Shown one piece after another: positions 4,471-33,911 of a DNA stretch of 38,255 nucleotides. The notes under the pieces are model-generated. The model ran no database searches. It saw nothing but the letters and a program-made list of their open reading frames with translations, and was not told the DNA's origin. Source of the DNA: a virus. Lineage: Duplodnaviria; Caudoviricetes. Numbering within the stretch: position 1 is the stretch's first letter; the number at the start of each line of letters is the position of its first letter. The stretch lies in the IMG/VR virus record IMGVR_UViG_3300030376_008412, positions 1 through 38,255 of that record; one strand, 5' to 3'. The position numbers and the translations under genes were made by a program.

Positions 4471-7400
4471 ATGGCTAAGGATGCTGTACAAAGTTATTTA
4501 GATTTAATAGAATCTTCTAATCAAGGGGTTTCTTTTTATGATGCTATGAATTTATCTAAGGATGAAGATACTTCTACAATCGGTACTGTTGAAGACTCAC
4601 AGGAACTTGCTCCAAAAACAAGTCCTTCCCCTAATATGACATCTTCTATAGCTCAAAGCTTTCTTCAAAGAGAAGAAGATGCTCTTAAACCTAAGAAATA
4701 CAAAGATCAGAATTGGTGGAGTACAGTAGGTAATGCTGTTTGGAGTTTTGGAGATGAGGCTTTATTTGGTGTTCCTGAATGGATAGCTACCAAAGGCTTC
4801 GGTGTTGAATTTGAGAAATGGGAAGACCAAACAGGTACGGAGAGGGCTCTAGAGACATTAGGAAGATTTGGAGGATTTGCAGTTGGAGCACCTTTAAAAC
4901 TAGGTAAAAAAGCCGTTGAAGTTGTTGGCGGAAAAGTTATTAATAAAGTTTTAAGAGAAGAAACTACAAGTCAACTAGTTAATAGAACTAGAAACGCAGC
5001 TGTAAAAGCAGTAGGAGACCTTCCTGGAGCATCTGCAGCCGTAGGACAAACTATTAAAGAAGCAGGTAATGCTTATTATCAAATTAATAAACGAGCTCAA
5101 TGGTCTAACAGTTTTGGAAAAAACTTTACTACAAAAGCTTCTGATACTATGAGAAAACTTGTAGATAAGCGAGTTGCTAGAAAAGAAGTCACTTATGATG
5201 AGGGTGAAGCTTTGTTTAAAATATTTAATGATAATTTAACCAAGCAATCAGCACATGATTTTGCTAGCCTTATGCAAATAAAATATAAGGGAGGAAAAAA
5301 AGGAGCTATTCTTGGAGAAATGATTAATGAAGCTCTTGTTTGGGGGACTATTGATGCAGTCATGGAATACCCTCGTTCTCAAGCTGAAGATAGACAATAT
5401 GACTGGACAGTCCCTATTTTTGGATTTGCAATGGGTTCTGCTTTAGGTCCTTTAGGGATGTGGAATTTAGGTGGTAAAAATGCAAGCTTTAAGAAAACTC
5501 TTGGTGATGGTATGAGAGCATTGTTCAGTACTAATATCTATAAAAATATGGAACTTTCTAAGTTACGAGATTATTCTAAATGGCATGGTGACGATATGCT
5601 TTATGATTTAGCTGGAAGAAAATATAAAGATGCACCAAAGCCAACAACAACAATAGAGCATAGAGGGGAGAAATATATTGTTGATTTTTCAGAGCCTAAA
5701 GGTTCACTATCAATTGATTTAAGTACTAAAAAAGCTATGTCTGAAGATACTCAGGCAACAATATTGAGAAAAGCATTAAACAAAGAACGTAAAAAACATG
5801 GTAAAGATTTAGTTAAAATGGCTTTTACTGAAGAATGGGATAATTTAAAGAAAGTTTTTCCTAGAATGATTTCTGGAGGTTTAATAATGGGTGCCCCTAA
5901 TGCTGCTATGATGGCATTAGGTGAAGAAGATTTGGACTGGCAAACTACATTTACTCATATTCTTATGGGTGGATTTATAATGAGAAAAGGATATGGAGCA
6001 AACTGGGACATGCAAGGTGCTAAAATGGCTAAGCTTAGAAGAGGTATAGCTACTTTAGGGGTGGATGTTCACAGTGATAAGTTTAATATACCTATATTTA
6101 AGAGATATGGTACTAGTAGCTTAGACCCTTTTAATACTAGTGGTGGCTTGGGTGAAATAAAATCACAAGCATTGCAACTAGGGGTTCTTACTAAAAATAG
6201 CGATGCAACAGACGGAGTTCTTCCTAAAGGAGAAAGGTCAGCTTATGATGAAATAGCTGAAGGAAATCTTGGACTATTTCATAAATTCTATTTAGAGGTT
6301 TCTAATCCAGGTATTGATACATACAGAGTATCTTTACATGATATCCCTGCAAGCGCAGCCAAGAATCTAGAATCTAGAATAAAGCTAACCGAATGGGATG
6401 AGCTTGGTGGAGCTAAAATGACACATCCTCAAGACTGGGATATGGTTTGGAATACAGCTGTTGAAGATGGTATTGGCCATATGTCTTCTGTTTTTGACAA
6501 TGCTTTAAGACAAGTGTTAACCGATAGAGGATTAAATTTTGATACTGATTCTGGTTACAATATGGGTAATTTATGGGAAAATGTTTATGTAGGGGATGCA
6601 TTAAAAGACGAAGCCAGAAAAGGGCTTGATGGAAAGTTAGACTTTTTGTTTAGGGATGACCCAGATGGAGATTGGGTAAATGATCCTGATTTAAGACCTG
6701 AGATACTTGTATCCGAAATGAACAAAATAAATAAGCTTATAGCCATTAATCAAAGAGTAGGTAGGGCTGGAAAGAATTTAAACACTCAAACAAATAATAG
6801 AGAGCTCGGTGGCAAAGATCATGATGAGCAAAATATTGATATTGCTGCTGATAAAGTTAGACATATATACAGTACTATTAAGGCTGCTGAAGACCAACTT
6901 ACTGCAGACTTAGGAGGTAGTGTAAAAATAGATCTGTCAAATGTAAATCAAGATATAGTTTCATTGATGGATATGAATACTACTAAAAGGGGAGCTCAAA
7001 AGGTTGAGCTTGCTTTTAATAAAGATGAAATAACTCATGAGGGCTTGAGAAAAAGTTTAATAAATGCAGGTATACTTGTCAGGGACGATGATGGTGATAT
7101 TAAGCTTCCTAATAGGTTGGGTGAATTAGAAGAAGCAATAATTGAAGCACCTATCAATGACCATGTTGCTAAAATGGAGGCAGTTAAGCTAGTTAGAGCC
7201 GCTTATGGTCTGTTGGGAGCAATAAGACAATATAAGGGTGTAGACAAACCTATAGGAAAAATAGACTATAGAATATTGATGGGTAATTCAAAAGGTTCTT
7301 TGTATTACGAGTTAAATCAAAGAGGGATTCAGCCTCAAGTTTTTACAAATATCGCCCAAATGGTATCGTCTAATATAATTGCAAAAAAAGTTGCAAATAC

Positions 7401-10400
7401 CAAATTAGTAACTGAGCAGGTTTCTTTTCTTAATGCAGGTATGATTGAAGAGTCTATGCCAGACTTAATGATTTACAATTCTCCTGGCGAAGGTAGACTT
7501 GGTGGATTTGAGGGGAAAAAATTAGTAACGACCAGTAAAGATGCTGATGATATTGCTATTGTCAATCAATACAACAGAAAGATAGACCAGATATCTAAAG
7601 ACTCAGAATCTCCTGATGGTGGTAGATTATTTCAAATAATTGGTGAAAAACCAATTACTAATCCTAATCAATTAATAAAAATTCAAGATTTGATGATTAG
7701 AGAAAATCAGTTTTTTGATCAGTATGATCAGCCTTCAATATTTCTAAAATCATTCTTTGATGCTATAGAGGGATTTGAACCTTTAAAATATGCAGCTAAA
7801 GAGTTTATAGACCTTAATCCAGGTAATGCAGGTAAGCTAATAGCTATGATGAAATCTACAGGTATTATAAAAATAGATCCTTCAATGGGTACTCCTGCTT
7901 ATAAAGTTGATGAACAAGAATGGTTTAAAACTCTTACAGATGAAGGTAAGGATAAGATGATTAAGTTCATGAAAGGATATGGAACTAGTATCGATGTAGT
8001 AGAATCTAGAATGAGTGACTATGCTGCAAGATATCATCATAAGTCTGAAAATATGTTTGCCTCATCTATAGGTGAAAAGGGATTAACTCAAGCAGAATTT
8101 TTTCAAAAATATTTTGGAGGAAGTGCTTCTGATGTTAAAGATCAAAATGAAATAATTTTTAACGCTTTGTCTAAGGACGATAACATAGATTCAGTCTTAG
8201 ATATTATAAGGTCTATGACCCATATTGACAAAGAAGAGCTTATTTTTGATGTTAACGCAAAATTACCAATGCTTTCTAACGAACAATATGATTTAATGAT
8301 AATGGAAACAGTTAGCCTTATTCACAGTAGAATAAATAGTGATAAAATGAATCATATTGATTTTTCTGGAGGAGATTTTAGGCATAGTGTTCAAACTATT
8401 CAAAAAAACCCTATAACCGATTACTTAAGTCAAAATATTGCAGGAGAGGGTATAGATAGCTTTTTTATAGACCCAACTATTCGATACAGAGATGATGAAG
8501 GAAATCTTCACATAGTAGATGTAACTACCGTTACCAATACAGATATTAAAAGAGATCCAGGAGGGAAAAAAGCTAAGGGTTATAGACATCTTAAAGAATC
8601 TTTGCTGGGAGTAGAGGATATCGTATCAGTAGATAGAAAGGATAAAAATTTAGTTATAAAAAGGTCTTCATTAGATGCTTCAGGGACTAAGCAAGGGATA
8701 GAAACTATTGTTATAGGAGAAAAGATTCCTATGCTTGGTATATTTAGAAAGGATTTTGCCAAGATTGAAGCAGAGTTTATAAATGTTATGAAAGATTTTG
8801 ACAGGGGTGGAAAATATGAAAACTTATTGACTGCTGATGGGAAAATAAAGCTTAAAAATATGTTAAGTACTTTTGACACAGACGTAACTACTGGACAAAG
8901 TATTAATAAGCAATGGAACCCAATGCATTCTCAAGCTATAAGAGATTTACTTTATCTTAAAATGGTTGGACCTAAAGAATTTGCCTCTCTTTTTAGCACA
9001 GGCTTAGATACGGCTGGAAATACGCTTGATAAGGTTGCTAAAAGATTTGGGTTGGCCTATACCCCATCTGCTAAAAGAATGAGCAAGGATCTCTATAAAA
9101 TGACTTCTAGGGCTTTTTGGGAACTTTCGCTTAAAGGTAATTATATACGTATAGGCAATGATCGACTTGAAACTAGACAGGCATTAAACCATTATGCTAA
9201 AAGAGGCAAGTATGGTGTTGCTGTTTATGATGACGACCCAATTACTAATTCGGACACTTCTATTAAATTAAAGTATGAAAAATTAATGGATCAACTCTAT
9301 GGAGATAGCCCTAACAAACCTACTTGGGAAGATTCTCAAGCTGGGAGAGATGATGTTTCTGGCTTTGACTCTATAGCATTTATAGGTACTAGAAAAGCAA
9401 GAGCTTTATCCGCAGGTACAGGTATGCTTGCAAAAGGTATTCATTCCATATTTAAGCCTATAATAAGCTCTAATGATCCCAATGCTATGCTTTATGGAAA
9501 AACAGTATTTATATATGACCCATATATGGCTAAAAATGTTATCGATAAAAATGATAGACTAGATGTCTTGCTTATGGGTACAGGTGCAAAGCTTGGTGGT
9601 GGAGATCAAATTAAAATGTCTGTAAACGACCTAACAGGCGAAACTCCTGGAATAAACAATAAGCACAATTACTTAGATAAAAATATTGTAGACTATGATT
9701 TAAATTCCTTAGGCATTATTCAAGCCCCTAAAGTTCAGGCTGCTGCAAAATTTGGACAACAATTAACATCCTATATGAATGATATAGAATGGAAACCTAT
9801 TTACGAAGCTTATTATCAGAATAATGTTGATAAAGCTAATCAAATGATGGATGAGTACTTAGACAATCCTGTTATGCTTAGAGAATTTATGTTAGATGCT
9901 AACGGTTTAAGTGATGACTACATTTTAGCTGAAATGGCTGAGGGAGGTGGAGCTGGAGCTCAGCTTGCATCTTTTGGAACTTTTTTAGCTTCTTCTAAAT
10001 TTGCAAATCCAATGGCTTTTGGTGAAAATATGATTATGAATGTCTTTAAGAGAAAGATGCTAGATAAAATATTAAATCCTTCAGCTGTTGTAAGGCAAGG
10101 AAGTGAAGAAGTTCAGTTTGGAGGAAAATCTGTATTAATTCAAAGTATGGACCCTCGATACAGAGCCTTAAAAGGCACTATAATTGAAGGTGAAGGAGAA
10201 GATGCAAAAGTTATTCAATACGGAGAAACTGTGCTATCTAATTCTACTGCAGATATTCCTTTAAGAGAAATTCTTGATACTAAAGGAACTCAAAAGCATG
10301 ATTTTTCTCTTAGATTTATAAGAAGAACCAAAGAAAGGGATGCAGATGAAGTTTGGACTAAAAAAGAATTACTAGACTATTTAGAAAAATCAGGTCAGAA

Positions 10401-13167
10401 GGAGTCTAGAAATTATAAGAGAGTGGAAAATATTCTTACAGGTAAGGATACTGATATCGAGACTTTAGGGCAGTTCCATGATATGGTTGTATCGCAAATA
10501 CCAGATCTACAGATAGCAATAGCTAGTACTAGATTTCCTAGAACAAGAACAAATGATTTAACATTCTTAGGCGTTAAAGGGTTTTTAGATGAAGAATATG
10601 GAAATTCGATGATTATTAACGATCATGATGTTTTAACTGTATTTGAGGGAGATTATGATGTAGATAAAGCAGATTTCTTTTTCCAGGGAACAGATGCTTT
10701 CTGGGGACATGTAGAAAAGGCTAAAAATAGATGGGTATGGGGTGCTAATCCTGATTCACAAGCTCCTATGAGATCTAATATTCAATTAGGTGCAGCTAAT
10801 CTTGCAGACGCTCAAACTAATAATGATCAATGGCAAAATCATGTAGGTAGGAGCGCAGCATATTCTGGAGCTATAGGAACGGTTCAAAAGTTGTCTCGTA
10901 ACTTAGGACACTTAAGTGCTGCTGTAAGAGAGGTTAAAGGGGGCATTATAGCTGAATACAGAGACCCTCAAAGTGGTCAGCTAAAAAGAGTAGTTATGAA
11001 TCATGACAATACCTTGGAATCTCACAGAAGAGCTTTTGAAACACAAGCCATGATTGATGCTAAGGCAAACCCTAGTCTATTTACAAAACTAGAAGATTGG
11101 GCAGAATCATATCTTTTTCCTTCATATATGAGATCTGTTAGTCCCGATGATCCTAATGCTATGGAAAAACATAAGGCGGATATAGCTTCTGGAAAAATAC
11201 CTGGTGAAAGAATAAGGCTTTTTGAAGAACTTAAATATGATTCTAGTTTAAAAGAATGGGTTCCTACTGAAGATGATTTAAGTATATATGCTAAAGAAGG
11301 AATAATGAATTTAATAGACCATCACGGCAAGATTTTAAGTTTAGGTACAGAAATTTATGATAATGGTACTCCTAGAAGCCCTAAATACAAAGATATGATA
11401 GATATATCAAAAAGTTACTTTGACCATGCTTCTGATATTAATAAGAGTTTATATCGAAGAACTAAATGGAAAAAAAGATTAAACAAAGATACCATTGTTG
11501 CTACAAATGAGTTATTTGACTCTACTGAAGGTAGCTACATAGATTATAGTAAAGGAAAGGATGAGAAAGGTAATTGGAGAAAACAAAAATATTATTATAT
11601 GGGGCAAAAGGCGAGATTCTATAATCCTTCTCTAATTAATTATTATAAAAATATTGCTAAAGGTGAAGCTGGTAGTCCTCTTGAAAGGGGATTACATACT
11701 ATAGAGGCTAAGGATGAGTTTAGGAAAGATAATAGAGTATTGCTTGAGGGAGATCAATTTCTCGCTATGGAAAAAGCTTTCTACAATTTCTTAGATGACG
11801 AAGGTACGGCTGACCTATTAATGCAAAATGTTGCAGGAATTATGAAAACTTCTAAAGACGCTAGAAAAGCTATTTTGTATTTTAAAAGTCAATTATATAG
11901 GGTTAAAACAGCGAAACAACGAGAAGGCTTAAAAGAAGCAATAGCTAAGCACGAGACTATTTTAAGCAAATTGCATGGAAAAGAAGCATTTAAAGACTAT
12001 CTTACAACTGAACAAGTTAAAGATTTGCCTGAGACATTACAACTAAGGTCTATTGACAAAGATTCTGATATGATTCAAGGAACAGCTCAAATGTATACTC
12101 TTTCTCCTGTTACTAGCATGTTTAAAGGTTCAAGTAAAGAATTTGACAAAGATATGTCTAATATGATGACCATGGATGCTAGATTCTGGGGAGATGAGCT
12201 TGATGCCTTGAAAAACTCAATGCCTTTTAAACATACCACTCTCCTCACTAAAGAGCAATCTGCAAAATTTCAAGATAGACCTAATCCTGATACTATAGAG
12301 CAGCTTATGATGGAAAACTTAGACAAAATGGTTGAAAAGCATGGTATCATGTTCTTGTGGAGATATGCAAAGCCTGCAGAAGGAACAGGTGTTGGAGTAT
12401 TTAATAATAAGCCTATTCCATATGCTGCTAAAAGCTCTAAAAATAGATTTAAAAGGATGATGCAGTTTTTAGGTAATAAAGCAAATGAAGGAGATGTTTA
12501 TTATCAAAAGATTTTAGGTATAGTAGCACAACGTCATGGAATGTATATGAATCTTTTTTCAAAAAAGACTAATTTAATTCCAGATAAAGATTGGCTTCTA
12601 AAAGAACAGATAAGGATCCCTAAGTTTGGAGATACTGCAATTACTCAATTAGATAATTATAGTAGTGTTAGTTTTGGTAGAAATAAAAACGATATGAGCC
12701 CTTTTTCTGGTGGCTTGCATTATGACCATACTATCTCTCTTTTTAGAGAATTTTATAGAATGGCTGGCAGAGAAGGTGAATTTGATACATTTTTAGGAGA
12801 TTTATCCAAACTTCATGAAATGACTATGAGTCAAGACATGATAGATCCTGCTAGTTATCTATTAATGATGGAAAAAATGCAGACCGATATGTATGATTTT
12901 GTAAGGAATCAATTTGCATTTCAAGGCAAAGAAGGAGATGTAAAGACCCTTAATAGGAATTTAAAAGATAATGAGCTATATTTGTTAATGGGTGGAGACG
13001 ATCATCAAGGAGCAGGAGTAACTTTAAATCCATTTAATGCTTTAAATAGATATTTTAAAACTCAAAAAGAAATGTTGGCTGGGCAAGCAACTGAAATGAC
13101 TTCTAAACCTTATGAAAACAAAGTAGAGGAATATCTCTACGGAAAATGTGGAGGCAGAGCGCAATAA
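4471..13167 (+). CDS. Putative virion-packaged single-chain RNA polymerase (double-psi beta-barrel type)
   Basis: 2898 aa. STRFPRTR is followed ~35 aa later by FEGDYDVDKAD (DxDxD at nt 10651-10665). GAGGAG SD; sits in a cluster of three giant late genes. Confidence 0.8.
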   Translation: MAKDAVQSYLDLIESSNQGVSFYDAMNLSKDEDTSTIGTVEDSQELAPKTSPSPNMTSSIAQSFLQREEDALKPKKYKDQNWWSTVGNAVWSFGDEALFGVPEWIATKGFGVEFEKWEDQTGTERALETLGRFGGFAVGAPLKLGKKAVEVVGGKVINKVLREETTSQLVNRTRNAAVKAVGDLPGASAAVGQTIKEAGNAYYQINKRAQWSNSFGKNFTTKASDTMRKLVDKRVARKEVTYDEGEALFKIFNDNLTKQSAHDFASLMQIKYKGGKKGAILGEMINEALVWGTIDAVMEYPRSQAEDRQYDWTVPIFGFAMGSALGPLGMWNLGGKNASFKKTLGDGMRALFSTNIYKNMELSKLRDYSKWHGDDMLYDLAGRKYKDAPKPTTTIEHRGEKYIVDFSEPKGSLSIDLSTKKAMSEDTQATILRKALNKERKKHGKDLVKMAFTEEWDNLKKVFPRMISGGLIMGAPNAAMMALGEEDLDWQTTFTHILMGGFIMRKGYGANWDMQGAKMAKLRRGIATLGVDVHSDKFNIPIFKRYGTSSLDPFNTSGGLGEIKSQALQLGVLTKNSDATDGVLPKGERSAYDEIAEGNLGLFHKFYLEVSNPGIDTYRVSLHDIPASAAKNLESRIKLTEWDELGGAKMTHPQDWDMVWNTAVEDGIGHMSSVFDNALRQVLTDRGLNFDTDSGYNMGNLWENVYVGDALKDEARKGLDGKLDFLFRDDPDGDWVNDPDLRPEILVSEMNKINKLIAINQRVGRAGKNLNTQTNNRELGGKDHDEQNIDIAADKVRHIYSTIKAAEDQLTADLGGSVKIDLSNVNQDIVSLMDMNTTKRGAQKVELAFNKDEITHEGLRKSLINAGILVRDDDGDIKLPNRLGELEEAIIEAPINDHVAKMEAVKLVRAAYGLLGAIRQYKGVDKPIGKIDYRILMGNSKGSLYYELNQRGIQPQVFTNIAQMVSSNIIAKKVANTKLVTEQVSFLNAGMIEESMPDLMIYNSPGEGRLGGFEGKKLVTTSKDADDIAIVNQYNRKIDQISKDSESPDGGRLFQIIGEKPITNPNQLIKIQDLMIRENQFFDQYDQPSIFLKSFFDAIEGFEPLKYAAKEFIDLNPGNAGKLIAMMKSTGIIKIDPSMGTPAYKVDEQEWFKTLTDEGKDKMIKFMKGYGTSIDVVESRMSDYAARYHHKSENMFASSIGEKGLTQAEFFQKYFGGSASDVKDQNEIIFNALSKDDNIDSVLDIIRSMTHIDKEELIFDVNAKLPMLSNEQYDLMIMETVSLIHSRINSDKMNHIDFSGGDFRHSVQTIQKNPITDYLSQNIAGEGIDSFFIDPTIRYRDDEGNLHIVDVTTVTNTDIKRDPGGKKAKGYRHLKESLLGVEDIVSVDRKDKNLVIKRSSLDASGTKQGIETIVIGEKIPMLGIFRKDFAKIEAEFINVMKDFDRGGKYENLLTADGKIKLKNMLSTFDTDVTTGQSINKQWNPMHSQAIRDLLYLKMVGPKEFASLFSTGLDTAGNTLDKVAKRFGLAYTPSAKRMSKDLYKMTSRAFWELSLKGNYIRIGNDRLETRQALNHYAKRGKYGVAVYDDDPITNSDTSIKLKYEKLMDQLYGDSPNKPTWEDSQAGRDDVSGFDSIAFIGTRKARALSAGTGMLAKGIHSIFKPIISSNDPNAMLYGKTVFIYDPYMAKNVIDKNDRLDVLLMGTGAKLGGGDQIKMSVNDLTGETPGINNKHNYLDKNIVDYDLNSLGIIQAPKVQAAAKFGQQLTSYMNDIEWKPIYEAYYQNNVDKANQMMDEYLDNPVMLREFMLDANGLSDDYILAEMAEGGGAGAQLASFGTFLASSKFANPMAFGENMIMNVFKRKMLDKILNPSAVVRQGSEEVQFGGKSVLIQSMDPRYRALKGTIIEGEGEDAKVIQYGETVLSNSTADIPLREILDTKGTQKHDFSLRFIRRTKERDADEVWTKKELLDYLEKSGQKESRNYKRVENILTGKDTDIETLGQFHDMVVSQIPDLQIAIASTRFPRTRTNDLTFLGVKGFLDEEYGNSMIINDHDVLTVFEGDYDVDKADFFFQGTDAFWGHVEKAKNRWVWGANPDSQAPMRSNIQLGAANLADAQTNNDQWQNHVGRSAAYSGAIGTVQKLSRNLGHLSAAVREVKGGIIAEYRDPQSGQLKRVVMNHDNTLESHRRAFETQAMIDAKANPSLFTKLEDWAESYLFPSYMRSVSPDDPNAMEKHKADIASGKIPGERIRLFEELKYDSSLKEWVPTEDDLSIYAKEGIMNLIDHHGKILSLGTEIYDNGTPRSPKYKDMIDISKSYFDHASDINKSLYRRTKWKKRLNKDTIVATNELFDSTEGSYIDYSKGKDEKGNWRKQKYYYMGQKARFYNPSLINYYKNIAKGEAGSPLERGLHTIEAKDEFRKDNRVLLEGDQFLAMEKAFYNFLDDEGTADLLMQNVAGIMKTSKDARKAILYFKSQLYRVKTAKQREGLKEAIAKHETILSKLHGKEAFKDYLTTEQVKDLPETLQLRSIDKDSDMIQGTAQMYTLSPVTSMFKGSSKEFDKDMSNMMTMDARFWGDELDALKNSMPFKHTTLLTKEQSAKFQDRPNPDTIEQLMMENLDKMVEKHGIMFLWRYAKPAEGTGVGVFNNKPIPYAAKSSKNRFKRMMQFLGNKANEGDVYYQKILGIVAQRHGMYMNLFSKKTNLIPDKDWLLKEQIRIPKFGDTAITQLDNYSSVSFGRNKNDMSPFSGGLHYDHTISLFREFYRMAGREGEFDTFLGDLSKLHEMTMSQDMIDPASYLLMMEKMQTDMYDFVRNQFAFQGKEGDVKTLNRNLKDNELYLLMGGDDHQGAGVTLNPFNALNRYFKTQKEMLAGQATEMTSKPYENKVEEYLYGKCGGRAQ

Positions 13168-22250: not shown

Positions 22251-22904
22251 TTATTTATTCTTCATTAACATTGCTGGAAAACTGAATACAATTTCTTTCT
22301 GTACTCTTTCTCCAGTTATAAACTTCTTAACAGTATTAACTATAAAGCTCCCACTCATATTAGAGCAATAACTAGTAGCCTTACTAGTACAAGGTTCTGG
22401 ATCTCCCTCACTATCAGGATACCATTTCTTCTCATAGCTTTTAACTGTTGGTTTAGCAAAGAAATACTGCTGATATTGTTCTGCTCCCATTCTACCGTCT
22501 ACAATAAATAGCGGTTTAATCCTAGGGTTTTCGCATAAAACTTTAACAGCATCTAATCTTGATTGCATTGAATCAAATCCTAATATAGCAACATCATTGT
22601 CACCTTGATATTCGAATATTTCAAATAATCCATCAAAGCTTTTAACTGTAGCGCTGCTATTAATGCTTAAGATATGATCTTTTAGTGCATTTACTTTAGG
22701 CTTGTTTACATCATTTAATATATAATGTGATACACCTATGTTCTCAAGACTAACTCTGTCCATATCATATAAACAGAATTTTTCTGCACCCATTCTTGCT
22801 AATTGGATAGCTGTGGAACTGCCAATAGCTCCACAACCTAATATATGAAAATAATAGTTGTCCAATCCTTCAACTATATCTTTAAAACGAGTAGTAATTG
22901 ACAT
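22251..22904 (-). CDS. ThiF/MoeB-family E1-like adenylyltransferase
   Basis: ILGCGAIGS...LARMG...YDMDRVSLENIG...KVNAL, D...SR, DGRMG. Candidate catalytic Cys in EPCTSKAT. Confidence 0.92.
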   Translation of the reverse strand: MSITTRFKDIVEGLDNYYFHILGCGAIGSSTAIQLARMGAEKFCLYDMDRVSLENIGVSHYILNDVNKPKVNALKDHILSINSSATVKSFDGLFEIFEYQGDNDVAILGFDSMQSRLDAVKVLCENPRIKPLFIVDGRMGAEQYQQYFFAKPTVKSYEKKWYPDSEGDPEPCTSKATSYCSNMSGSFIVNTVKKFITGERVQKEIVFSFPAMLMKNK

Positions 22905-22914
22905 TCATTTCTCC

Positions 22915-23820
22915 TTATTGATACCATCCACTTTTCCAAGAAAGCTCAGTTATTAATACTGATTCTATATCTTCAAACTTTTGATTTACGTCTATAAAAT
23001 CAGCAGGTTCTTTATAATGAATAGTTGTATCATCTTCTTTAAAGTCTTTTATTTCAAATCCCGCTTCAGCAGTTTTTAATTGCATATTGCAAACACGAAT
23101 TTGTTTGTTAACTTCATTGTAATCAACTTCTCCACCCATAAGCTCTCCCATTAATTGGTCTAGCATGTCCCATGTTTGTTTGTAGTATCTTTCAAACGTA
23201 GCATTTTCAATAGTATTTTCATTAATACTGTCAATTGCTTTGTAATTATTAATATTAAATAAATTACTTTGATTGCCATTCTTATATGAATTTATTTTAC
23301 TACTATAGCTTGAAGTTTGTGTAGAGCACTTATCATTTACTTCTTTAATAATTGATTTAGGGACTTCTTTTTCATTATTCTCAATTAATAGTTCAACATC
23401 TTTGTGCACCTCAATGGGCTCCCAGACAGAAACTCTTAATTTATACTCTTCTTTAAGATTTACTACTAAAGCAAAGCTAAAATCTCCTTCATTAAACTCT
23501 TCAATAGCTTCTAAGTCTGTTGAGGACCAGAATGCTGCCATTGTATGATGAGAATGCCACCATAAGAATCTATATTCAGCATTTTTATACTTTTTGCTAG
23601 ATGCTATTTTAGTATAGTATTTTGCTAATTCATCTTTTTGCAACACAGTGTTGCCTCCAGATATTACTTGCTTAAGTATTACTGGATCTTCAATCCACCA
23701 ATCATCATCTTTTTTGATGCATACTGCCATTCCACCTATTTCAGCTCTGTGTAAATCATATGCAGCTTCAGAATAGTTTATAATCTTTTTCCAGGACTTA
23801 CTATCTATGTGAATTTCCAT
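22915..23820 (-). CDS. JAB/MPN+ (JAMM) metalloprotease with C-terminal extension
   Basis: EIGG...WWHSHHTMAAFWSSTD fits the E-xn-HxH-x7-S-xx-D JAMM motif. Confidence 0.9.
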   Translation of the reverse strand: MEIHIDSKSWKKIINYSEAAYDLHRAEIGGMAVCIKKDDDWWIEDPVILKQVISGGNTVLQKDELAKYYTKIASSKKYKNAEYRFLWWHSHHTMAAFWSSTDLEAIEEFNEGDFSFALVVNLKEEYKLRVSVWEPIEVHKDVELLIENNEKEVPKSIIKEVNDKCSTQTSSYSSKINSYKNGNQSNLFNINNYKAIDSINENTIENATFERYYKQTWDMLDQLMGELMGGEVDYNEVNKQIRVCNMQLKTAEAGFEIKDFKEDDTTIHYKEPADFIDVNQKFEDIESVLITELSWKSGWYQ

Positions 23821-23968
23821 TCTTTTTACTCCTTAAATAATGTTTCATAGTATCTAATTTTATAAATATATGATCATCTGGGCGAAATAATTCAATCCAA
23901 TGTTTTTTCTCCTCTTCATAATACATATCTATAATATCGTTTAAAGCATTTTTTGTATTTGTATCCAT
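23801..23968 (-). CDS. Small hypothetical protein within the Ubl module
   Basis: Likely start MDTNTKN with GGAGG SD; overlaps the JAB start. Confidence 0.6.
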   Translation of the reverse strand: MDTNTKNALNDIIDMYYEEEKKHWIELFRPDDHIFIKLDTMKHYLRSKKNGNSHR

Positions 23969-23979
23969 AATTCCTCCAA

Positions 23980-24089
23980 TATTAAAAGAGAGCCTCACAT
24001 ATTCCTTTGCCTGTCAGTATTGGTCGGGTATCTACGGGACTGACTGCCATTTAGGACTTACAGGACCAGTTATTGGCTCTCTCTTAATA
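23980..24089 (-). ncRNA. Structured RNA candidate directly after the Ubl gene
   Basis: 15-bp closing stem UAUUAAGAGAGAGCC/GGCUCUCUUUUAAUA (one G-U on minus strand). Inner GUCAGU/ACUGAC helix and potential UGGUC/GACCA pseudoknot. Confidence 0.6.
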
Positions 24090-24099
24090 AACTTAAATA

Positions 24100-24318
24100 T
24101 TACTGATTGCCACCAGTTTTGTTACTGATAACAGCAGCTACTTGATCATCATCTTGTAGCTCATAAGTATCCGTAACATCTCTACCATTAACAGATATGC
24201 TAGCACCATTAGGTATTTCCATTTCTGTTCTTAGTTGAGATATAGTTCCAGATTGAACTTCTGTATCTACAAAGCGTGCGCCTCTCAAGTATTTAATTGT
24301 TTTTGTTGTTGTTGACAT
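24100..24318 (-). CDS. Ubiquitin-like (beta-grasp, ThiS/MoaD-like) protein with pro-extension
   Basis: 72 aa: TISQLR...ISVNGRDV...YELQDDDQVAAV...KTGGNQ; AGGAG SD. Confidence 0.88.
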   Translation of the reverse strand: MSTTTKTIKYLRGARFVDTEVQSGTISQLRTEMEIPNGASISVNGRDVTDTYELQDDDQVAAVISNKTGGNQ

Positions 24319-24340
24319 TGTTGTCTCCTTGTTTAATTAA

Positions 24341-26116
24341 TTAAAACGGTACTTTTTTCCATACTCCATCTATATCTTCATACCATCCTTCACCATGTCC
24401 TACTGCAGTGAACTTCTTTAGATCAGGTGTGATAGAAGAATTAGAATCTTTTTTCTTTTCTTTAGGTTTAACCCATTTGAAATATTCATTAGCCTTATCA
24501 AAATCTATATTTAAATCCTTATATGATAAAGTGTAATCTTCTTGTTCAATATAAAGCATATCTTCTTCAATAAAACTAATTGAGGTAGCTATTAAATCAT
24601 CTTCATATAACTTGAAATCATTTATTAATAGTTCTTTGAACCTACCATTACCAAAATGTTGGTTCCACATATATTCTAAATGATTACATGAATTAATTAT
24701 TGTAGCAGGATTACCTTTAAATGGTAAACAGTCATTTTCATGCATCCATTCTTCTTTTTCATTTAACATATCTTTGAAGAATATCATGTATGATATGAGT
24801 CTTGAATTTTCTCTGTGTTTATCTAAGAATTTATAAATATCTTCAAAATCAGAATCACTAAGCATTATATCTTCTATCTTATCATTTCCTATTTCAGATA
24901 TTTCCATAAGAACAGCTTCTCTCTTATATTGAAAACTTTCATCAAAATTCTCTTTATAAAAGCTGCAACTATTCTTTAGAGAACAATTCATTTTATTGCA
25001 ATAAACATCTTCTAACTCTATATTGCTTCCAAGCTCTTCATGATCACCAGGATACATACATGATTCTGCAGAAGTATGATTCCTTACTATTGTAAGCAAC
25101 CTTTCATCGAAACTTGAAGGTCTTCCATAAAATAGCATAGAAATATCATTCATTGGTGCAGTTTTGTTTACCACGTATGTGCTCATCCATTTATTAAAAT
25201 GATAAAAGAATGATGTATAGTCTAATTGTAGCAAAGCTATTCTCATGTCTGATTGCAATTCTCCTTCACAGATATATTCCCACTTAGTTCTATTTCTTGT
25301 ATTACGACTCATGTAAGGATGTAGTAATCTTCTATTGTCATTAACACAATATCTAGCTTTAACTGCATATGAGTCCCAGCTACCTATTCTAGTTACATAG
25401 TTTTGACTCCTATATCTAGCATTAGGTAATTGAGTAATATTTTCTATAGAATTATTACATAATGAGTTTATCCATTTGACTATAGGTATTTGAAAGCAAA
25501 CCTGTATAGGCCATTGAAGTTCAATAGGTTGATTGACAGGTTCAGAACTTGTATCGTTAGCAATAGTTACATTTATTTCATGACCTTTCTTTACTGTGCA
25601 TAATACATACAATAAAGGTATGTTGCTTTCTAAGTCATTCTTATCTATAAATGCATCGATATGAATAGTACTTGAACCAGAATTAAATAGCTCTTCAATT
25701 ACTTTATCTTTTACAAATTTAAACTTTTCTATAACAACATCAGAGTTATCTTGAAATTCAGCATTTGAGCTCCTTAAATCGTCTAACAGATTTTGCAAAC
25801 TATTTAGTTCTTGTTTAAAGTTTCTATATCTCCATGTAGACTGATCTATTTTATTTAAGAAAGTAGATACTTTACTTGTTCTAACATTCCAGCCTAGTAT
25901 ATCAGTATAAGCTTTTCTAATCTTATTATATATACCAGGAGACCATCTAAATGTCTTGGTAACCCCTATATCAGAATTATATCTGTAATTAAAGTCTTCA
26001 ACCTTCTCTAATATTTCTTTTTGAGGGCCCAGTAACACTTGTTCTGACAGATTCTCTATTTGACTGTTACTTATTTCATCTAGAGAGATTTTTTCAAAGT
26101 TTGGATCTACAAACAT
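24341..26116 (-). CDS. Multidomain protein with putative prokaryotic E2-like domain
   Basis: LLHPYM-x11-ICEGE (HP...C-x-G) followed by helices and Y...P. Also a Cys cluster SC...CNKMNCSLKNSC. Adjacent to Ubl, JAB and E1. Confidence 0.6.
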   Translation of the reverse strand: MFVDPNFEKISLDEISNSQIENLSEQVLLGPQKEILEKVEDFNYRYNSDIGVTKTFRWSPGIYNKIRKAYTDILGWNVRTSKVSTFLNKIDQSTWRYRNFKQELNSLQNLLDDLRSSNAEFQDNSDVVIEKFKFVKDKVIEELFNSGSSTIHIDAFIDKNDLESNIPLLYVLCTVKKGHEINVTIANDTSSEPVNQPIELQWPIQVCFQIPIVKWINSLCNNSIENITQLPNARYRSQNYVTRIGSWDSYAVKARYCVNDNRRLLHPYMSRNTRNRTKWEYICEGELQSDMRIALLQLDYTSFFYHFNKWMSTYVVNKTAPMNDISMLFYGRPSSFDERLLTIVRNHTSAESCMYPGDHEELGSNIELEDVYCNKMNCSLKNSCSFYKENFDESFQYKREAVLMEISEIGNDKIEDIMLSDSDFEDIYKFLDKHRENSRLISYMIFFKDMLNEKEEWMHENDCLPFKGNPATIINSCNHLEYMWNQHFGNGRFKELLINDFKLYEDDLIATSISFIEEDMLYIEQEDYTLSYKDLNIDFDKANEYFKWVKPKEKKKDSNSSITPDLKKFTAVGHGEGWYEDIDGVWKKVPF

Positions 26117-28057: not shown

Positions 28058-28545
28058 TTAAGAAGCTTGGTGAAGGATTTGAGATTACCTTCAAAATGTC
28101 TAGTTCATATGGGATTTCTCCTCACGATGTATAGAATCATAGCTGTCGCTACTGGCCTCATGCTCACTTGCGCTCGTTTACAGATTAGCCTAAAGGGAAT
28201 GGATATTACTTATTGGTCCCTCATTCTATCTTATACAGCCCTGAACATGAGCATAGTATAAGTTAACACCGCAACCAAATCTCTACCCTTTCGGGCTTTA
28301 TTTAATTGTATTCGACATTTGCCATACTTAAGGGCATCCTCCCTCTTTCACCTCGTTCATTTGAACTTAGTGTCAGCCAACGCTGAAAGTATGCTGATGT
28401 AGGCCTTTGGAAACAAGCCTTTCACATCATTACCAACTAAGATATCATTAAACCACCTCGGTCTAGACTTTTATACATAATACCTAAGTATTAAAGCTAA
28501 TACAATATACCGTCGCATATTATACTAATAATATCAACTTCTTAA
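28058..28545 (-). ncRNA. Large (~490 nt) ornate structured RNA candidate
   Basis: Ends pair (UUAAGAAG/CUUCUUAA). Many nested helices, a GCCC-GAAA-GGGU tetraloop and a candidate pseudoknot. No SD-led ORF. Confidence 0.65.
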
Positions 28546-29331: not shown

Positions 29332-29413
29332 TTATAAAACCTCCATAGTTATTATTGTCAAGTATTATTGGGTATTATACTACAAAAATAGTAGTATTTT
29401 ACTACAAAATTTA

Positions 29414-29534
29414 TTGCTATAATGGTGCACACACAGTTTAGTTCCTTCCCTACTAACTCATAAGTTAACAGTTTGAGCCTGTTAGATCTCAATCCCTCAT
29501 GTTTAGAGTGGGTATCCACTGATCATTATAGCAA
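29414..29534 (-). ncRNA. Structured RNA candidate
   Basis: TTGCTATAATG/CATTATAGCAA 11-bp closing stem; inner AGUGG/CCACU and UAACAG/CUGUUA hairpins. Confidence 0.5.
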
Positions 29535-29550
29535 ATTACATTAATTCCGT

Positions 29551-29666
29551 GCCACCTCTCCTTAGATCATCATGTTATACGTTTCGACTGCAAGGTACGG
29601 TGTCTTACGCTTAAACACTGGTAAAGAGAGGTTGAGATATAAACACCTTACTGTCTTATCTCTGGC
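29551..29666 (-). ncRNA. Structured RNA candidate immediately 3' of the tmRNA-like gene
   Basis: GCCA/UGGC closing helix with GAGAUA/UAUCUC and ACCUCUC/GAGAGGU arms (three-way junction). Confidence 0.45.
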
Positions 29667-29671
29667 TTGAG

Positions 29672-29749
29672 TGGAGCTGGTGAGAATCGAACTCACGTCT
29701 TGATGAAAACTCTTTCAAGTCTTAACATCAATCGAAACCATTCAGCCCC
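29672..29749 (-). ncRNA. Minimal tmRNA-like RNA (tRNA-like domain only, 78 nt)
   Basis: GGGGCUG-AAUGGUUUCGA-[helix 2 capped by GAAA]-GAC-GUGAG UUCGAUU CUCAC-CAGCUCC-A. Shows tmRNA 5' and 3' ends, a G3-U70 pair and a stemless D-loop. Confidence 0.8.
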
Positions 29750-30176: not shown

Positions 30177-30195
30177 CTTAAATGTATATAAATAG

Positions 30196-30268
30196 TTACG
30201 GGGACAGGAGTCGAACCTGCTGTCTCTAGCTTATGAGGCTAGCGAGTAAACCGTTTCTCTCACCCGTA
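30196..30268 (-). tRNA. tRNA with CAT anticodon (Met, or Ile2 if lysidine-modified)
   Basis: UACGGGU...CUAGC-CUCAUAA-GCUAG...GCAGG-UUCGACU-CCUGU-CCCCGUA-A cloverleaf. One acceptor mismatch; CCA not encoded. Confidence 0.85.
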
Positions 30269-30286
30269 TTAATTACAAAAGCTAAA

Positions 30287-30629
30287 AGAGAGAGACTACA
30301 CAAAAGGATTTTCACCTTCACCATACCCCGTCTACGTGCATTTACTTTCGCACACCCCATCTCTCTCTCTAACATTAAATTACATGTACACACACCGTGT
30401 TTGTTCCTAGAGTTCGCCTGACCGTATTGTCTCCAAACATGTAAAGTTTCCTATAAGTTTCTATATATTACTTGCACACACACGCACAGTATTAGACTGG
30501 TTTCCATTAACCATGAGTAAAGAGTTGGTTAGTGTACTGTATTGTGCTAAAACCATGCGTTTGTGCTAGCAATAGTAGTTATAGTATGTTAAAAGAGAAG
30601 ATAGTCCGCTATCACCTGGAGTCTTCTCT
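30287..30629 (-). ncRNA. Four further stem-closed elements upstream of the tRNA
   Basis: AGAGAGAGA/TCTCTCTCT (30287-30370), TTACATGT/ACATGTAA (30380-30444), a nested GCACA/TGTGC unit (30474-30566) and AGAGAAGA/TCTTCTCT (30594-30629). Confidence 0.45.
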
Positions 30630-32355: not shown

Positions 32356-33911
32356 TGGCAAATATAAATCTACATAATGTTTCTAAAGAGGAGGAGGCAC
32401 TACATCTAGCTAAAAACGATTTAATTGCATTTGGTAAGTTATTTTTACCTGATGATTTTATGCGTAGTGAGACACCTTTCTTCCATTATGAGGTGTGTGA
32501 TGCTTTAGACGATATGAATCAAAGACAACTTGCAGTTATATTGCCTCGTGGTCACGGAAAGACAGTATTGACTAAATGTAGCATACTTCATGATTTTGTT
32601 TTTACTAAGGAACCTTTATTCTATGGATGGGTAGCTGCATCTAGTAAGATATCAGTTCCCAACCTCGACTATGTCAAATATCATTTGGAATTTAATGACA
32701 AATTTTTGTATTATTTTGGTAGTTTAAAAGGGAGAAAATGGACGGAAGATGATATTGAGCTTACGAACGGTTGCAAACTTATTAGTAAATCCAACTTATC
32801 AGGGATTCGTGGAGGCGCTAAGCTTCATAAGAGGTACGATCTTATCATATTGGACGATTTTGAAGATGAGAATAATACCATTACAGCTGAGTCTAGAGCA
32901 AAAATCTCTAACCTTGTTACAGCTGTTGTTTTTCCCGCTCTTGAGCCTGGCACTGGTCGTCTCAGGATCAACGGGACTCCTGTTCATTTTGATTCATTTA
33001 TACAAAATATTCTTGTCGGTCACGACCAAGCTAAAAAACGTGGCGAAAAATATAGTTGGAAAGTAATTACGTATAAGGCTTTAATGCCTGATGGTACTCC
33101 TTTATGGCCAAGTTGGTTTGGTGAAAAGGAGATGGAAAGAAAGAAAAAGTTTTATACAGATTCAGGACAACCTCATAAATTCTACCAAGAATATATGATG
33201 GAAGTACAAAGTAAGGATGATTCAATCTTTACAAGGGAGCATATAAAATATTGGGATGGACACTTACAGTATGATGAAGAAATGGACATTCACCTTCTTA
33301 GAAAAGAAGATGGTACTGAAGTACCTGTTAATGTTTTTGCGGGCGTCGACCCAGCTACTGATAGCGCTAGGCGTGGGAGTGATTACAGCGTTATCCTTGT
33401 TGTTGCTGTTGATGCAACTAATAATGTCTATGTTATTGACTATATTAGGAAACGCTCATTGTCAGTTCTCGGTATTCCAGGAGAAGATAAGAAAGGTATT
33501 GTAGATTATATTTTTGATTACAATAAATTATACAAGCCTTCGCTTTTTACAATTGAAGATACAACAATGTCTAAACCTATATTTCAGTCATTGATAGCTG
33601 AGATGAGGAGAAAAAATGATTTTAGCGTTAAATACGTTGCGGAGAAACCTGGTACAAGAATGTCGAAACGTGATCGTATTCAAGAAATACTCGCTCAAAG
33701 ATTTGCTATAGGTGGTATGCATTTAAAGAAAACGCAATATGACTTACAGCACGAAGTATTAACATTTGGCCCACGTATGGGACATGATGATGCCATAGAT
33801 GCATTAGCTTACGCATGCAAACACGCTCATCCTCCTATGGGTATAAATGAAAACAAGGAAGGCGTATTTAAAAAACACAGACCCACAGCTAAAAGCTGGG
33901 TCACAGCTTAA
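32355..33911 (+). CDS. terL: Terminase large subunit
   Basis: Walker A PRGHGKT, Walker B LIILDDFE, INGTP, FYQEYM, nuclease GVDPA and HDDAIDAL. Likely start GTG 32355. Confidence 0.95.
   Translation: MANINLHNVSKEEEALHLAKNDLIAFGKLFLPDDFMRSETPFFHYEVCDALDDMNQRQLAVILPRGHGKTVLTKCSILHDFVFTKEPLFYGWVAASSKISVPNLDYVKYHLEFNDKFLYYFGSLKGRKWTEDDIELTNGCKLISKSNLSGIRGGAKLHKRYDLIILDDFEDENNTITAESRAKISNLVTAVVFPALEPGTGRLRINGTPVHFDSFIQNILVGHDQAKKRGEKYSWKVITYKALMPDGTPLWPSWFGEKEMERKKKFYTDSGQPHKFYQEYMMEVQSKDDSIFTREHIKYWDGHLQYDEEMDIHLLRKEDGTEVPVNVFAGVDPATDSARRGSDYSVILVVAVDATNNVYVIDYIRKRSLSVLGIPGEDKKGIVDYIFDYNKLYKPSLFTIEDTTMSKPIFQSLIAEMRRKNDFSVKYVAEKPGTRMSKRDRIQEILAQRFAIGGMHLKKTQYDLQHEVLTFGPRMGHDDAIDALAYACKHAHPPMGINENKEGVFKKHRPTAKSWVTA

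What the first reader, a model, noticed from the sequence alone, without database searches (positions are those of the whole stretch)
29672..29749. Miniature tmRNA: tRNA-like domain only, no tag reading frame
Seen: minus strand reads GGGGCUGAAUGGUUUCGAUUGAUGUUAAGACUUGAAAGAGUUUUCAUCAAGACGUGAGUUCGAUUCUCACCAGCUCCA. It has a 7-bp acceptor with G3-U70, discriminator A, a stemless D-loop ending UUCGA, a GAC linker and a T-arm. Helix 2 is closed by a GAAA tetraloop. Known: these are the tmRNA determinants for AlaRS and SmpB; bacterial tmRNAs carry a ~250-nt pseudoknot/tag region here, and tag-less forms are known mainly from protist mitochondria. Inference: an SmpB decoy that blocks trans-translation, or a tag-free ribosome rescue RNA.
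Basis: partly seen in the sequence, partly recalled or inferred. Interest (0 to 1): 0.88.

Follow-up and report, generated by a model that had tools for sequence, protein, structure and literature searches.

The report
Phage tag-less mini-tmRNA
A marine phage carries a 78-base RNA gene that copies only the tRNA-like head of the bacterial ribosome-rescue RNA (tmRNA) and has no tag message; this kind is published for one mycobacteriophage but is common in phage sequences, and it likely works as an alanine-charged competitor that would keep the host from tagging stalled proteins for destruction.

Summary
29672-29749(-) scores 60.5 bits on Rfam tmRNA, with 9 nt where about 300 are expected, and 26.5 bits as a tRNA. 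CCA is not encoded. The contig is a marine podovirus-like phage. The kind is known: the TLD-only tmRNA of mycobacteriophage DS6A (PMC4131195, PMC11915505), which scores 61.5 bits against 75.8 for the window on a model built from neither. This scan noted such genes before on other DNA (26 findings). The family is large: an estimated 180-980 IMG/VR stretches, depending on the pattern. With the identity positions left free, G3-U70 and A73 were kept in 96 of 96 while neighbouring pairs covary. The 30-34 nt capped arm has a conserved A-rich bulge. SmpB was found in 0 of 50 carrier records and an integrase in 4 of 50. The gene is accessory: 0 of 13 near-complete terminase relatives carry it. Best reading (inferred): it is alanine-charged, binds host SmpB and EF-Tu, and displaces host tmRNA at stalled ribosomes. 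Expression is not shown. Verdict: new member of a known, under-described kind.

The parts
29672..29749 (-). Mini-tmRNA gene (tRNA-like domain only), 78 nt to the discriminator; CCA not encoded
   Evidence: RF00023 60.5 bits; own model R1 75.8 bits; parse
29743..29749 (-). Acceptor stem 5' strand, G3 at 29747
   Evidence: sequence
29732..29742 (-). Stemless D region ending UUCGA (predicted SmpB contact surface)
   Evidence: sequence; contacts U17, C18, G19 named in PMC8363625; mapping to this motif through the Rfam consensus
29700..29731 (-). 32-nt helix-2 arm: 6 outer pairs, AA at arm positions 9-10, cap stem with GAAA tetraloop; replaces the pseudoknot and tag region
29697..29699 (-). GAC linker; middle A is the predicted equivalent of E. 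coli A334
   Evidence: sequence; middle A in 80 of 86 with the position left free; numbering equivalence recalled
29680..29696 (-). T arm, 5-bp stem and 7-nt loop
29672..29679 (-). Acceptor 3' strand with U70 equivalent (29675) and discriminator A (29672)
30195..30268 (-). tRNA-Met(CAU), same strand, 445 nt upstream; recurring neighbour (lies just downstream of the mini gene in L506 and next to it in a contig of run X2)

Best explanation
This is a phage-encoded, structurally conserved tmRNA head without a message, which is likely matured and alanine-charged by host enzymes, is predicted to bind host SmpB and EF-Tu, and would take the place of host tmRNA at stalled ribosomes so that stalled chains escape the degradation tag. 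Shown: the gene, its anatomy, family-wide covariation, invariant alanine identity, the absence of a tag frame, and no smpB in carrier records. Inferred steps: (1) it is transcribed with the neighbouring tRNA-Met, cut at the 5' end by RNase P, trimmed and given CCA; (2) host AlaRS charges it through G3-U70 and A73; (3) SmpB binds the D-loop and linker, which also drains SmpB from host tmRNA; (4) EF-Tu delivers the complex to an empty A site and the chain is transferred to its alanine; (5) with no resume codon no tag is added, and the chain is freed by drop-off and Pth or by a back-up release factor. Step 5 is the weakest.
For: G3-U70 96 of 96 and A73 96 of 96 among unique matches to a pattern that left these positions free, while pair 4-69 takes five pair types. 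First six arm pairs: 462 of 480 cells paired, shuffles 247.5 +/- 9.5, maximum 284. Model-fitted alignment: 97.9% of 1834 cells paired against 43-53% for slid controls; pair 3 GU in 98 of 98 (part of that set came from patterns that fix G3-U70). With D loop and linker left free: linker middle A 80 of 86, T(C/T)GA 58 of 86; the window has both. SmpB in 0 of 50 carrier records (0 of 16 near complete) and none in this contig. 10 of 12 prokaryote genome assemblies with a mini gene also hold a full-length tmRNA. Literature, seen as passages: a DS6A-like TLD inhibits tmRNA (PMC4131195, PMC11915505, both citing Mao 2009); peptidyl transfer to a TLD-only RNA is implied in vitro (PMC3895274, citing Shimizu and Ueda 2006); TLD-SmpB-EF-Tu was crystallised on the ribosome (PMC8363625).
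Against: No expression, charging or binding data for this RNA; RNA run X20 did not cover it and no promoter-like site lies just upstream. PMC4131195 says the inhibition held whether or not the RNA was chargeable, so charging is not needed to inhibit. A reference title in PMC2862035 (O'Connor 2007, title and one-line summary only) says that minimal translation of the tag region is needed for ribosome release, which argues against clean release in step 5. Some phages need host trans-translation (lambda-immP22, PMC2862035), so blocking it may cost. 28 of 86 family members lack the T(C/T)GA D-loop motif. The gene is dispensable in this lineage: 0 of 46 relatives' records, 0 of 13 near complete (positive control 5 of 5). 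The host is unknown.
Confidence: 0.5

Rival explanations
1. Passive SmpB sponge: it binds and drains SmpB without acting on ribosomes; alanine identity is kept only because charging and EF-Tu binding protect the RNA.
For: Inhibition reported for chargeable and unchargeable forms, 'perhaps by titrating SmpB' (PMC4131195 passage). Carriers encode no SmpB.
Against: G3-U70 and A73 in 96 of 96, and a fixed arm length (30-34 nt in 87 of 96, where the pattern allowed 24-40) with a conserved A-rich bulge, are more constraint than SmpB binding alone seems to need.
Confidence: 0.2
2. Decoy or spare substrate for host defence enzymes that attack tmRNA or tRNA-Ala, or an alanine donor for an SmpB-independent reaction.
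For: Patchy, accessory distribution. Sits beside tRNA genes in 16 of 80 loci. Defence systems with SmpB-like folds are predicted to bind tmRNA (PMC11090510 passages). A third of the family lacks the canonical D-loop motif.
Against: No such defence activity is shown. The window keeps the SmpB-contact motifs intact.
Confidence: 0.12
3. Template-free alanine tailing: after the first mini-RNA/SmpB translocates, the A site is again empty, a second one enters, and repeated cycles add an alanine tail.
For: Invariant alanine identity. Two SmpB sites on the ribosome are described (PMC3022190 passage). No conserved stop or resume frame in the arm.
Against: Pure inference. Nothing would end the cycle, and no such activity was found in the papers searched.
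Confidence: 0.07
4. tRNA-like processing signal or recombination anchor that punctuates and shuffles small RNAs in the phage early region.
For: Contigs of runs X4 and X5 share an identical mini gene plus about 350 nt upstream at about 98% identity and diverge exactly at its 3' end (29671); a second breakpoint lies near the 3' end of tRNA-Met. Order relative to tRNA-Met differs between relatives.
Against: Neither cutting nor recombination needs G3-U70 plus A73 (96 of 96). This explains how the gene moves, not why it is conserved.
Confidence: 0.07
5. Decayed ssrA pseudogene or attP remnant with no RNA function.
For: ssrA is a common integration target (established knowledge; PMC11915505 abstract). 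Absent from most relatives.
Against: Both ends are present and pair. No duplicate of either end on the same strand in the window. No tyrosine integrase in this 69%-complete contig and in 4 of 50 carriers only. Compensatory changes in all four helices. 83% DNA identity to L506, whose shared proteins are 27-32% identical.
Confidence: 0.03
6. One piece of a split tmRNA whose message is supplied in trans.
For: A weak RF00023 interior hit at 33019-33132(+), E 2.9, and an unknown conserved RNA at 28065-28307.
Against: Helix 2 is closed by its own hairpin. The weak hit lies inside the terminase gene. The 28065-28307 element also occurs in L121 and L136, whose records have no mini gene.
Confidence: 0.01

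Closest known systems
TLD-only tmRNA of mycobacteriophage DS6A (tmID 11587; 'Standard, no CDS' class; PMC4131195, PMC11915505, citing Mao et al. 2009)
   Same: Same plan: G3-U70 acceptor, stemless D loop, closed arm with A-rich bulge and tetraloop cap, T arm, no encoded CCA. It scores 61.5 bits on model R1, built from 31 IMG/VR sequences. Not annotated in its GenBank record.
   Different: This one is from an uncultured AT-rich marine podovirus-like phage, keeps the canonical GGUUUCGA and GAC motifs (DS6A has GGUCGA and CAC), has a GAAA cap, and sits near tRNA-Met.
Standard bacterial tmRNA (Rfam RF00023)
   Same: Acceptor, D loop, start of helix 2, linker and T arm all align to the model.
   Different: No pseudoknots, resume codon, tag frame or stop. 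A at arm position 10 in 81 of 93 mini clusters against 1 of 11 full-length tmRNAs examined (small sample, and the Rfam consensus has a GAa a little further along).
CDS-less organellar tmRNAs (mitochondrial RF02544; jakobid and Mallomonadaceae forms)
   Same: No tag frame (PMC11915505, PMC3985003 passages).
   Different: No RF02544 match at this locus; not permuted; where tested in prokaryote genomes it usually coexists with a full tmRNA (10 of 12).
Full-length or two-piece phage tmRNAs (Bxz1 group, phage G, Melnitz)
   Same: Phage-encoded ssrA-like gene.
   Different: Those are complete one- or two-piece tmRNAs (PMC4131195, PMC9004378 passages); this one has no message.

Membership tests
TLD-only (CDS-less) phage tmRNA, DS6A type | One-piece TLD with 7-bp acceptor, G3-U70 and discriminator A | tested here: met
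TLD-only (CDS-less) phage tmRNA, DS6A type | Stemless D loop, linker and T arm of tmRNA type | tested here: met
TLD-only (CDS-less) phage tmRNA, DS6A type | Helix 2 closed by a short hairpin; no tag frame | tested here: met
   32-nt arm; window and DS6A both match model R1 end to end; no fixed stop register in the family
TLD-only (CDS-less) phage tmRNA, DS6A type | Phage-encoded | tested here: met
   terminase, portal and helicase hits; virus record, 69% complete
TLD-only (CDS-less) phage tmRNA, DS6A type | Inhibits host tmRNA when expressed | not testable with these tools
   needs a bench assay
TLD-only (CDS-less) phage tmRNA, DS6A type | Expressed as a mature RNA | tested here: inconclusive
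   one RNA run, contigs only, no cover of the gene and little of the region
Standard tmRNA (trans-translation competent) | mRNA-like domain with resume codon, tag and stop; pseudoknot ring | tested here: not met
   9 nt in place of 300 model positions
Canonical tRNA-Ala | D stem and anticodon stem-loop | tested here: not met
   ARAGORN no call; RF00005 26.5 bits, under cut-off; terminal loop is 4 nt
Mitochondrial tmRNA (RF02544) | Match to the family model | tested here: not met
attP remnant of ssrA | Gene-end fragment beside an integrase | tested here: not met
   both ends intact; no tyrosine integrase in the held 69% of the genome; serine integrases not searched separately, none among the 37 ORFs scanned

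The most novel reading that the evidence does not exclude
Hundreds of phages encode a purpose-built, message-free rescue RNA that works on ribosomes: charged with alanine and carried by host SmpB, it takes nascent chains from stalled ribosomes and releases them untagged, or adds alanines without any template through repeated cycles, with its fixed-length A-bulged arm acting at the ribosomal B1 bridges.
Probability: 0.25. Interest if true: 0.85.

Novelty: new member of a known kind. Interest (0 to 1): 0.5.

Why it matters
The 2025 tmRNA database lists 9 'standard, no CDS' sequences (PMC11915505, Table 3), and ARAGORN misses this gene, whereas pattern scans here point to several hundred stretches in IMG/VR. 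So a published curiosity is a common phage accessory gene. The invariant alanine identity turns two open questions into direct experiments: can a TLD with SmpB and no message free a ribosome (the same question stands for mitochondrial tmRNA), and why would a phage silence SsrA tagging? A natural 78-nt inhibitor of trans-translation would also be a handy laboratory probe. This particular copy is a typical member, not an outlier.

Tried and rejected
blastn against isolate phages found only T-arm-sized hits, 0 of 77 records covering 80% of the query; DS6A was among them. A mis-registered pattern (my miscount by one base) gave 1 match against about 390 for the corrected one, an unplanned negative control. 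A window-like pattern in metagenome contigs gave 2 matches. Terminase relatives: no mini gene in 80 loci (one E 0.76 hit on a tRNA-Met) or in 46 records (4 of the 50 asked for were not held). Of 31 GTDB pattern matches, 19 were dropped because no local 5' acceptor strand pairs (12 cyanobacterial, probably 3' parts of their own tmRNA, not checked; 7 others); 12 were kept. Whether those 12 lie in prophages was not checked. Stop codon in the arm as a built-in terminator: 87 of 134 against 79 +/- 3.7 in column shuffles (47 of 2000 as high), spread over three registers and mostly explained by the A-rich bulge; rejected. An ARAGORN tmRNA call on L048 has no tmRNA-like 5' end and was treated as spurious. 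RNA run X20 gave no cover, which is no evidence either way. The promoter scan found fewer sites than shuffles. The host was not identified: the best isolate terminase hits are about 25% identical. Mao et al. 2009 is not held. The one supplementary file of PMC11915505 gave no hits for the terms tried, so the identity of its 9 no-CDS sequences was not seen.

Full report
1. Observation. The sequence is as quoted at 29749..29672 on the minus strand. Parsed from the 3' end it gives a 7/7 acceptor with G3-U70, an 11-nt D region ending UUCGA, a 32-nt arm, GAC, a 5/5 T stem and discriminator A, followed by CUC, so CCA must be added. Rfam's tmRNA model scores it 60.5 bits end to end with 9 nt where 300 positions are expected. 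The tRNA model gives 26.5 bits, under cut-off, the mitochondrial tmRNA model nothing, and ARAGORN does not see it. A contig of run X1, possibly the source sample, spans the region without a difference.

2. Context. The window is a 69%-complete virus record with terminase subunits, a P22-like portal, a helicase and large virion genes. The runs holding a fifth or more of the region's words are marine metagenomes. The gene lies in an ORF-poor stretch of the minus-strand block, 445 nt downstream of tRNA-Met(CAU). No smpB and no tyrosine integrase are in the held sequence. The host was not identified.

3. Family. Pattern 1: 119 stretches, about 180 estimated, 80 unique sequences including the window. 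Positions it left free pair fully: acceptor 5 and 6 and T-stem 1 and 2 in 80 of 80, and the first six arm pairs in 462 of 480 cells against 247.5 +/- 9.5 for shuffles (related sequences are not independent). Pattern 2 left the alanine identity free (120 stretches, about 390 estimated): among 96 unique sequences U70 and A73 are each 96 of 96, G3-U70 96 of 96, while pair 4-69 is GC 57, CG 22, UA 7, GU 6, AU 3, unpaired 1; the arm is 30-34 nt in 87 of 96; CCA is encoded in 24 of 96. Pattern 3 left D loop and linker free (120 stretches, about 980 estimated): of 104 unique sequences 86 were fully paired and not called tRNA (18 dropped); the linker's middle A is kept in 80 of 86 and T(C/T)GA in 58 of 86. 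Across patterns 1 and 2, A stands at arm position 10 in 119 of 134 sequences and 81 of 93 clusters, against 1 of 11 full-length tmRNAs. A model from 31 sequences scores the window 75.8 and DS6A 61.5 bits; on its 98-row fitted alignment all four helices show double changes. These genes are therefore not random deletions of host ssrA but a family with its own constrained arm.

4. Distribution. In 185,579 GTDB genomes pattern 2 found 31 stretches, 12 of them true mini genes; 10 of those 12 assemblies also hold a full-length tmRNA. Among 50 carrier virus records chosen mainly for length, 0 have SmpB and 4 a tyrosine integrase. 16 of 80 loci have a tRNA within 1.5 kb. In this phage's own lineage the gene is accessory: 0 of 46 records of terminase relatives (74-81% identity), 0 of 13 near complete (control 5 of 5). 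It still recurs nearby. Contigs of runs X4 and X5 (two studies) carry an identical gene and diverge exactly at its 3' end; X5 holds a second allele with 7 differences; X2 holds an allele next to a near-identical tRNA-Met. The closest IMG/VR relative I picked out, L506, has the gene just before tRNA-Met, 83% identical in DNA, while shared primase, ThiF and JAB proteins are 27-32% identical. That means strong selection, recent exchange, or both.

5. Mechanism. I commit to a charged competitor of host tmRNA (0.5). Alanine identity is invariant although, according to PMC4131195, an unchargeable similar RNA also inhibits; selection on charging therefore suggests something beyond SmpB titration, most simply EF-Tu delivery to the stalled ribosome. 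The SmpB contacts named in PMC8363625 (U17, C18, G19, A334) have equivalents in the window; the A15 position is U, and the A334 mapping is recalled. TLD-only RNA accepts peptide in vitro by the account in PMC3895274. Helix 2 passes the B1 bridges during translocation (PMC8363625, section 9), which offers a reason for a fixed arm length; this link is inference. What happens after transfer is open: release by drop-off and Pth or a back-up factor, a jam, or repeated alanine addition. Against the model: no expression data, a third of the family lacks the canonical D loop, one cited study indicates that some tag translation is needed for release, and lambda-immP22 depends on host trans-translation (PMC2862035). 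Rivals: passive sponge 0.2, defence decoy or SmpB-independent donor 0.12, alanine tailing 0.07, processing or recombination anchor 0.07, remnant 0.03, split tmRNA 0.01.

6. Known or new. The kind is in print: DS6A 'TLD only' (PMC4131195) and 9 'Standard, no CDS' sequences (PMC11915505). The two papers differ on whether the DS6A RNA itself or a similar molecule was tested; Mao 2009 is not held. Eight paper searches listed no paper whose title or shown passages describe a large phage family of such genes; the library lacks most subscription journals, and the 2025 database's sequence files were not seen. This scan has 26 earlier notes on such genes in other genomes; one gave me DS6A as the closest known case, which I then tested.

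7. What I saw of each paper. Passages: PMC4131195, PMC11915505 (one supplement searched without hits), PMC3985003, PMC11590407, PMC5648845, PMC8012679, PMC9004378, PMC3022190, PMC11090510, PMC2862035, PMC3895274. Passages and section 9: PMC8363625. Second-hand only: Mao 2009, Shimizu and Ueda 2006, O'Connor 2007, Withey and Friedman 1999. The roles of RNase P and the CCA-adding enzyme are established knowledge, not tested here.

8. Verdict. A real, conserved, probably functional RNA gene; a typical new member of the DS6A-type TLD-only tmRNAs. Interest 0.5: the locus itself is not new in kind, but the size of the family and its invariant alanine identity make the function directly testable.

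Noticed in passing
window 28065-28307 (-): A second, unknown non-coding element of about 240 nt: 77% identical to L506:4-227, also in L121 and L136, with a 5' tetraloop hairpin and a 3' hairpin followed by CCA. 21 of 54 predicted pairs show a double change among 4 sequences; its 3' motif occurs in 5 IMG/VR stretches; no Rfam match. A candidate lineage-specific structured RNA.
   Followed up: partly
window 22251-26116 (-): ThiF/E1-like gene (PF00899, E 2.7e-18) beside weak Prok-JAB and ThiS/ubiquitin-like hits and a 591-aa unknown: looks like a phage ubiquitin-like conjugation cassette; the ThiF and JAB genes are also in L506.
   Followed up: partly
window 29551-29632 (-): Long hairpin just downstream of the mini gene (120-nt window z -3.2, 30 shuffles, the lowest of 35 windows). 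The sequence downstream of the gene differs in contigs of runs X4 and X5.
   Followed up: partly
window 30280-30375 (-); L506:761-910: A stem closed by AGAGAGAGA ... GUAGUCUCUCUCU flanks tRNA-Met in both phages with different interiors: a conserved shell with variable content.
   Followed up: no
window 30195-30268 (-): tRNA-Met(CAU) without encoded CCA; a tRNA-Met lies upstream of terminase in 9 of 50 related loci scanned.
   Followed up: partly
window 29400-29560 (-): Possible further structured RNA with a long closing stem (MFE -36.3, no shuffle control for this span).
   Followed up: no
window 4471-13167 (+): 2898-aa ORF with no convincing Pfam or PHROG hit, among the virion genes.
   Followed up: no
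records KF787094.1, NC_053515.1, NC_048017.1: Unannotated matches to the 3' end of the mini gene in Achromobacter phage JWDelta, Mycobacterium phage MrMagoo and Microbacterium phage Eden; may be further mini genes in cultured phages.
   Followed up: no
L328 (Nitrosotalea MAG) and L310: A mini gene with a longer 40-nt arm in an archaeal assembly in which no full tmRNA was found.
   Followed up: no
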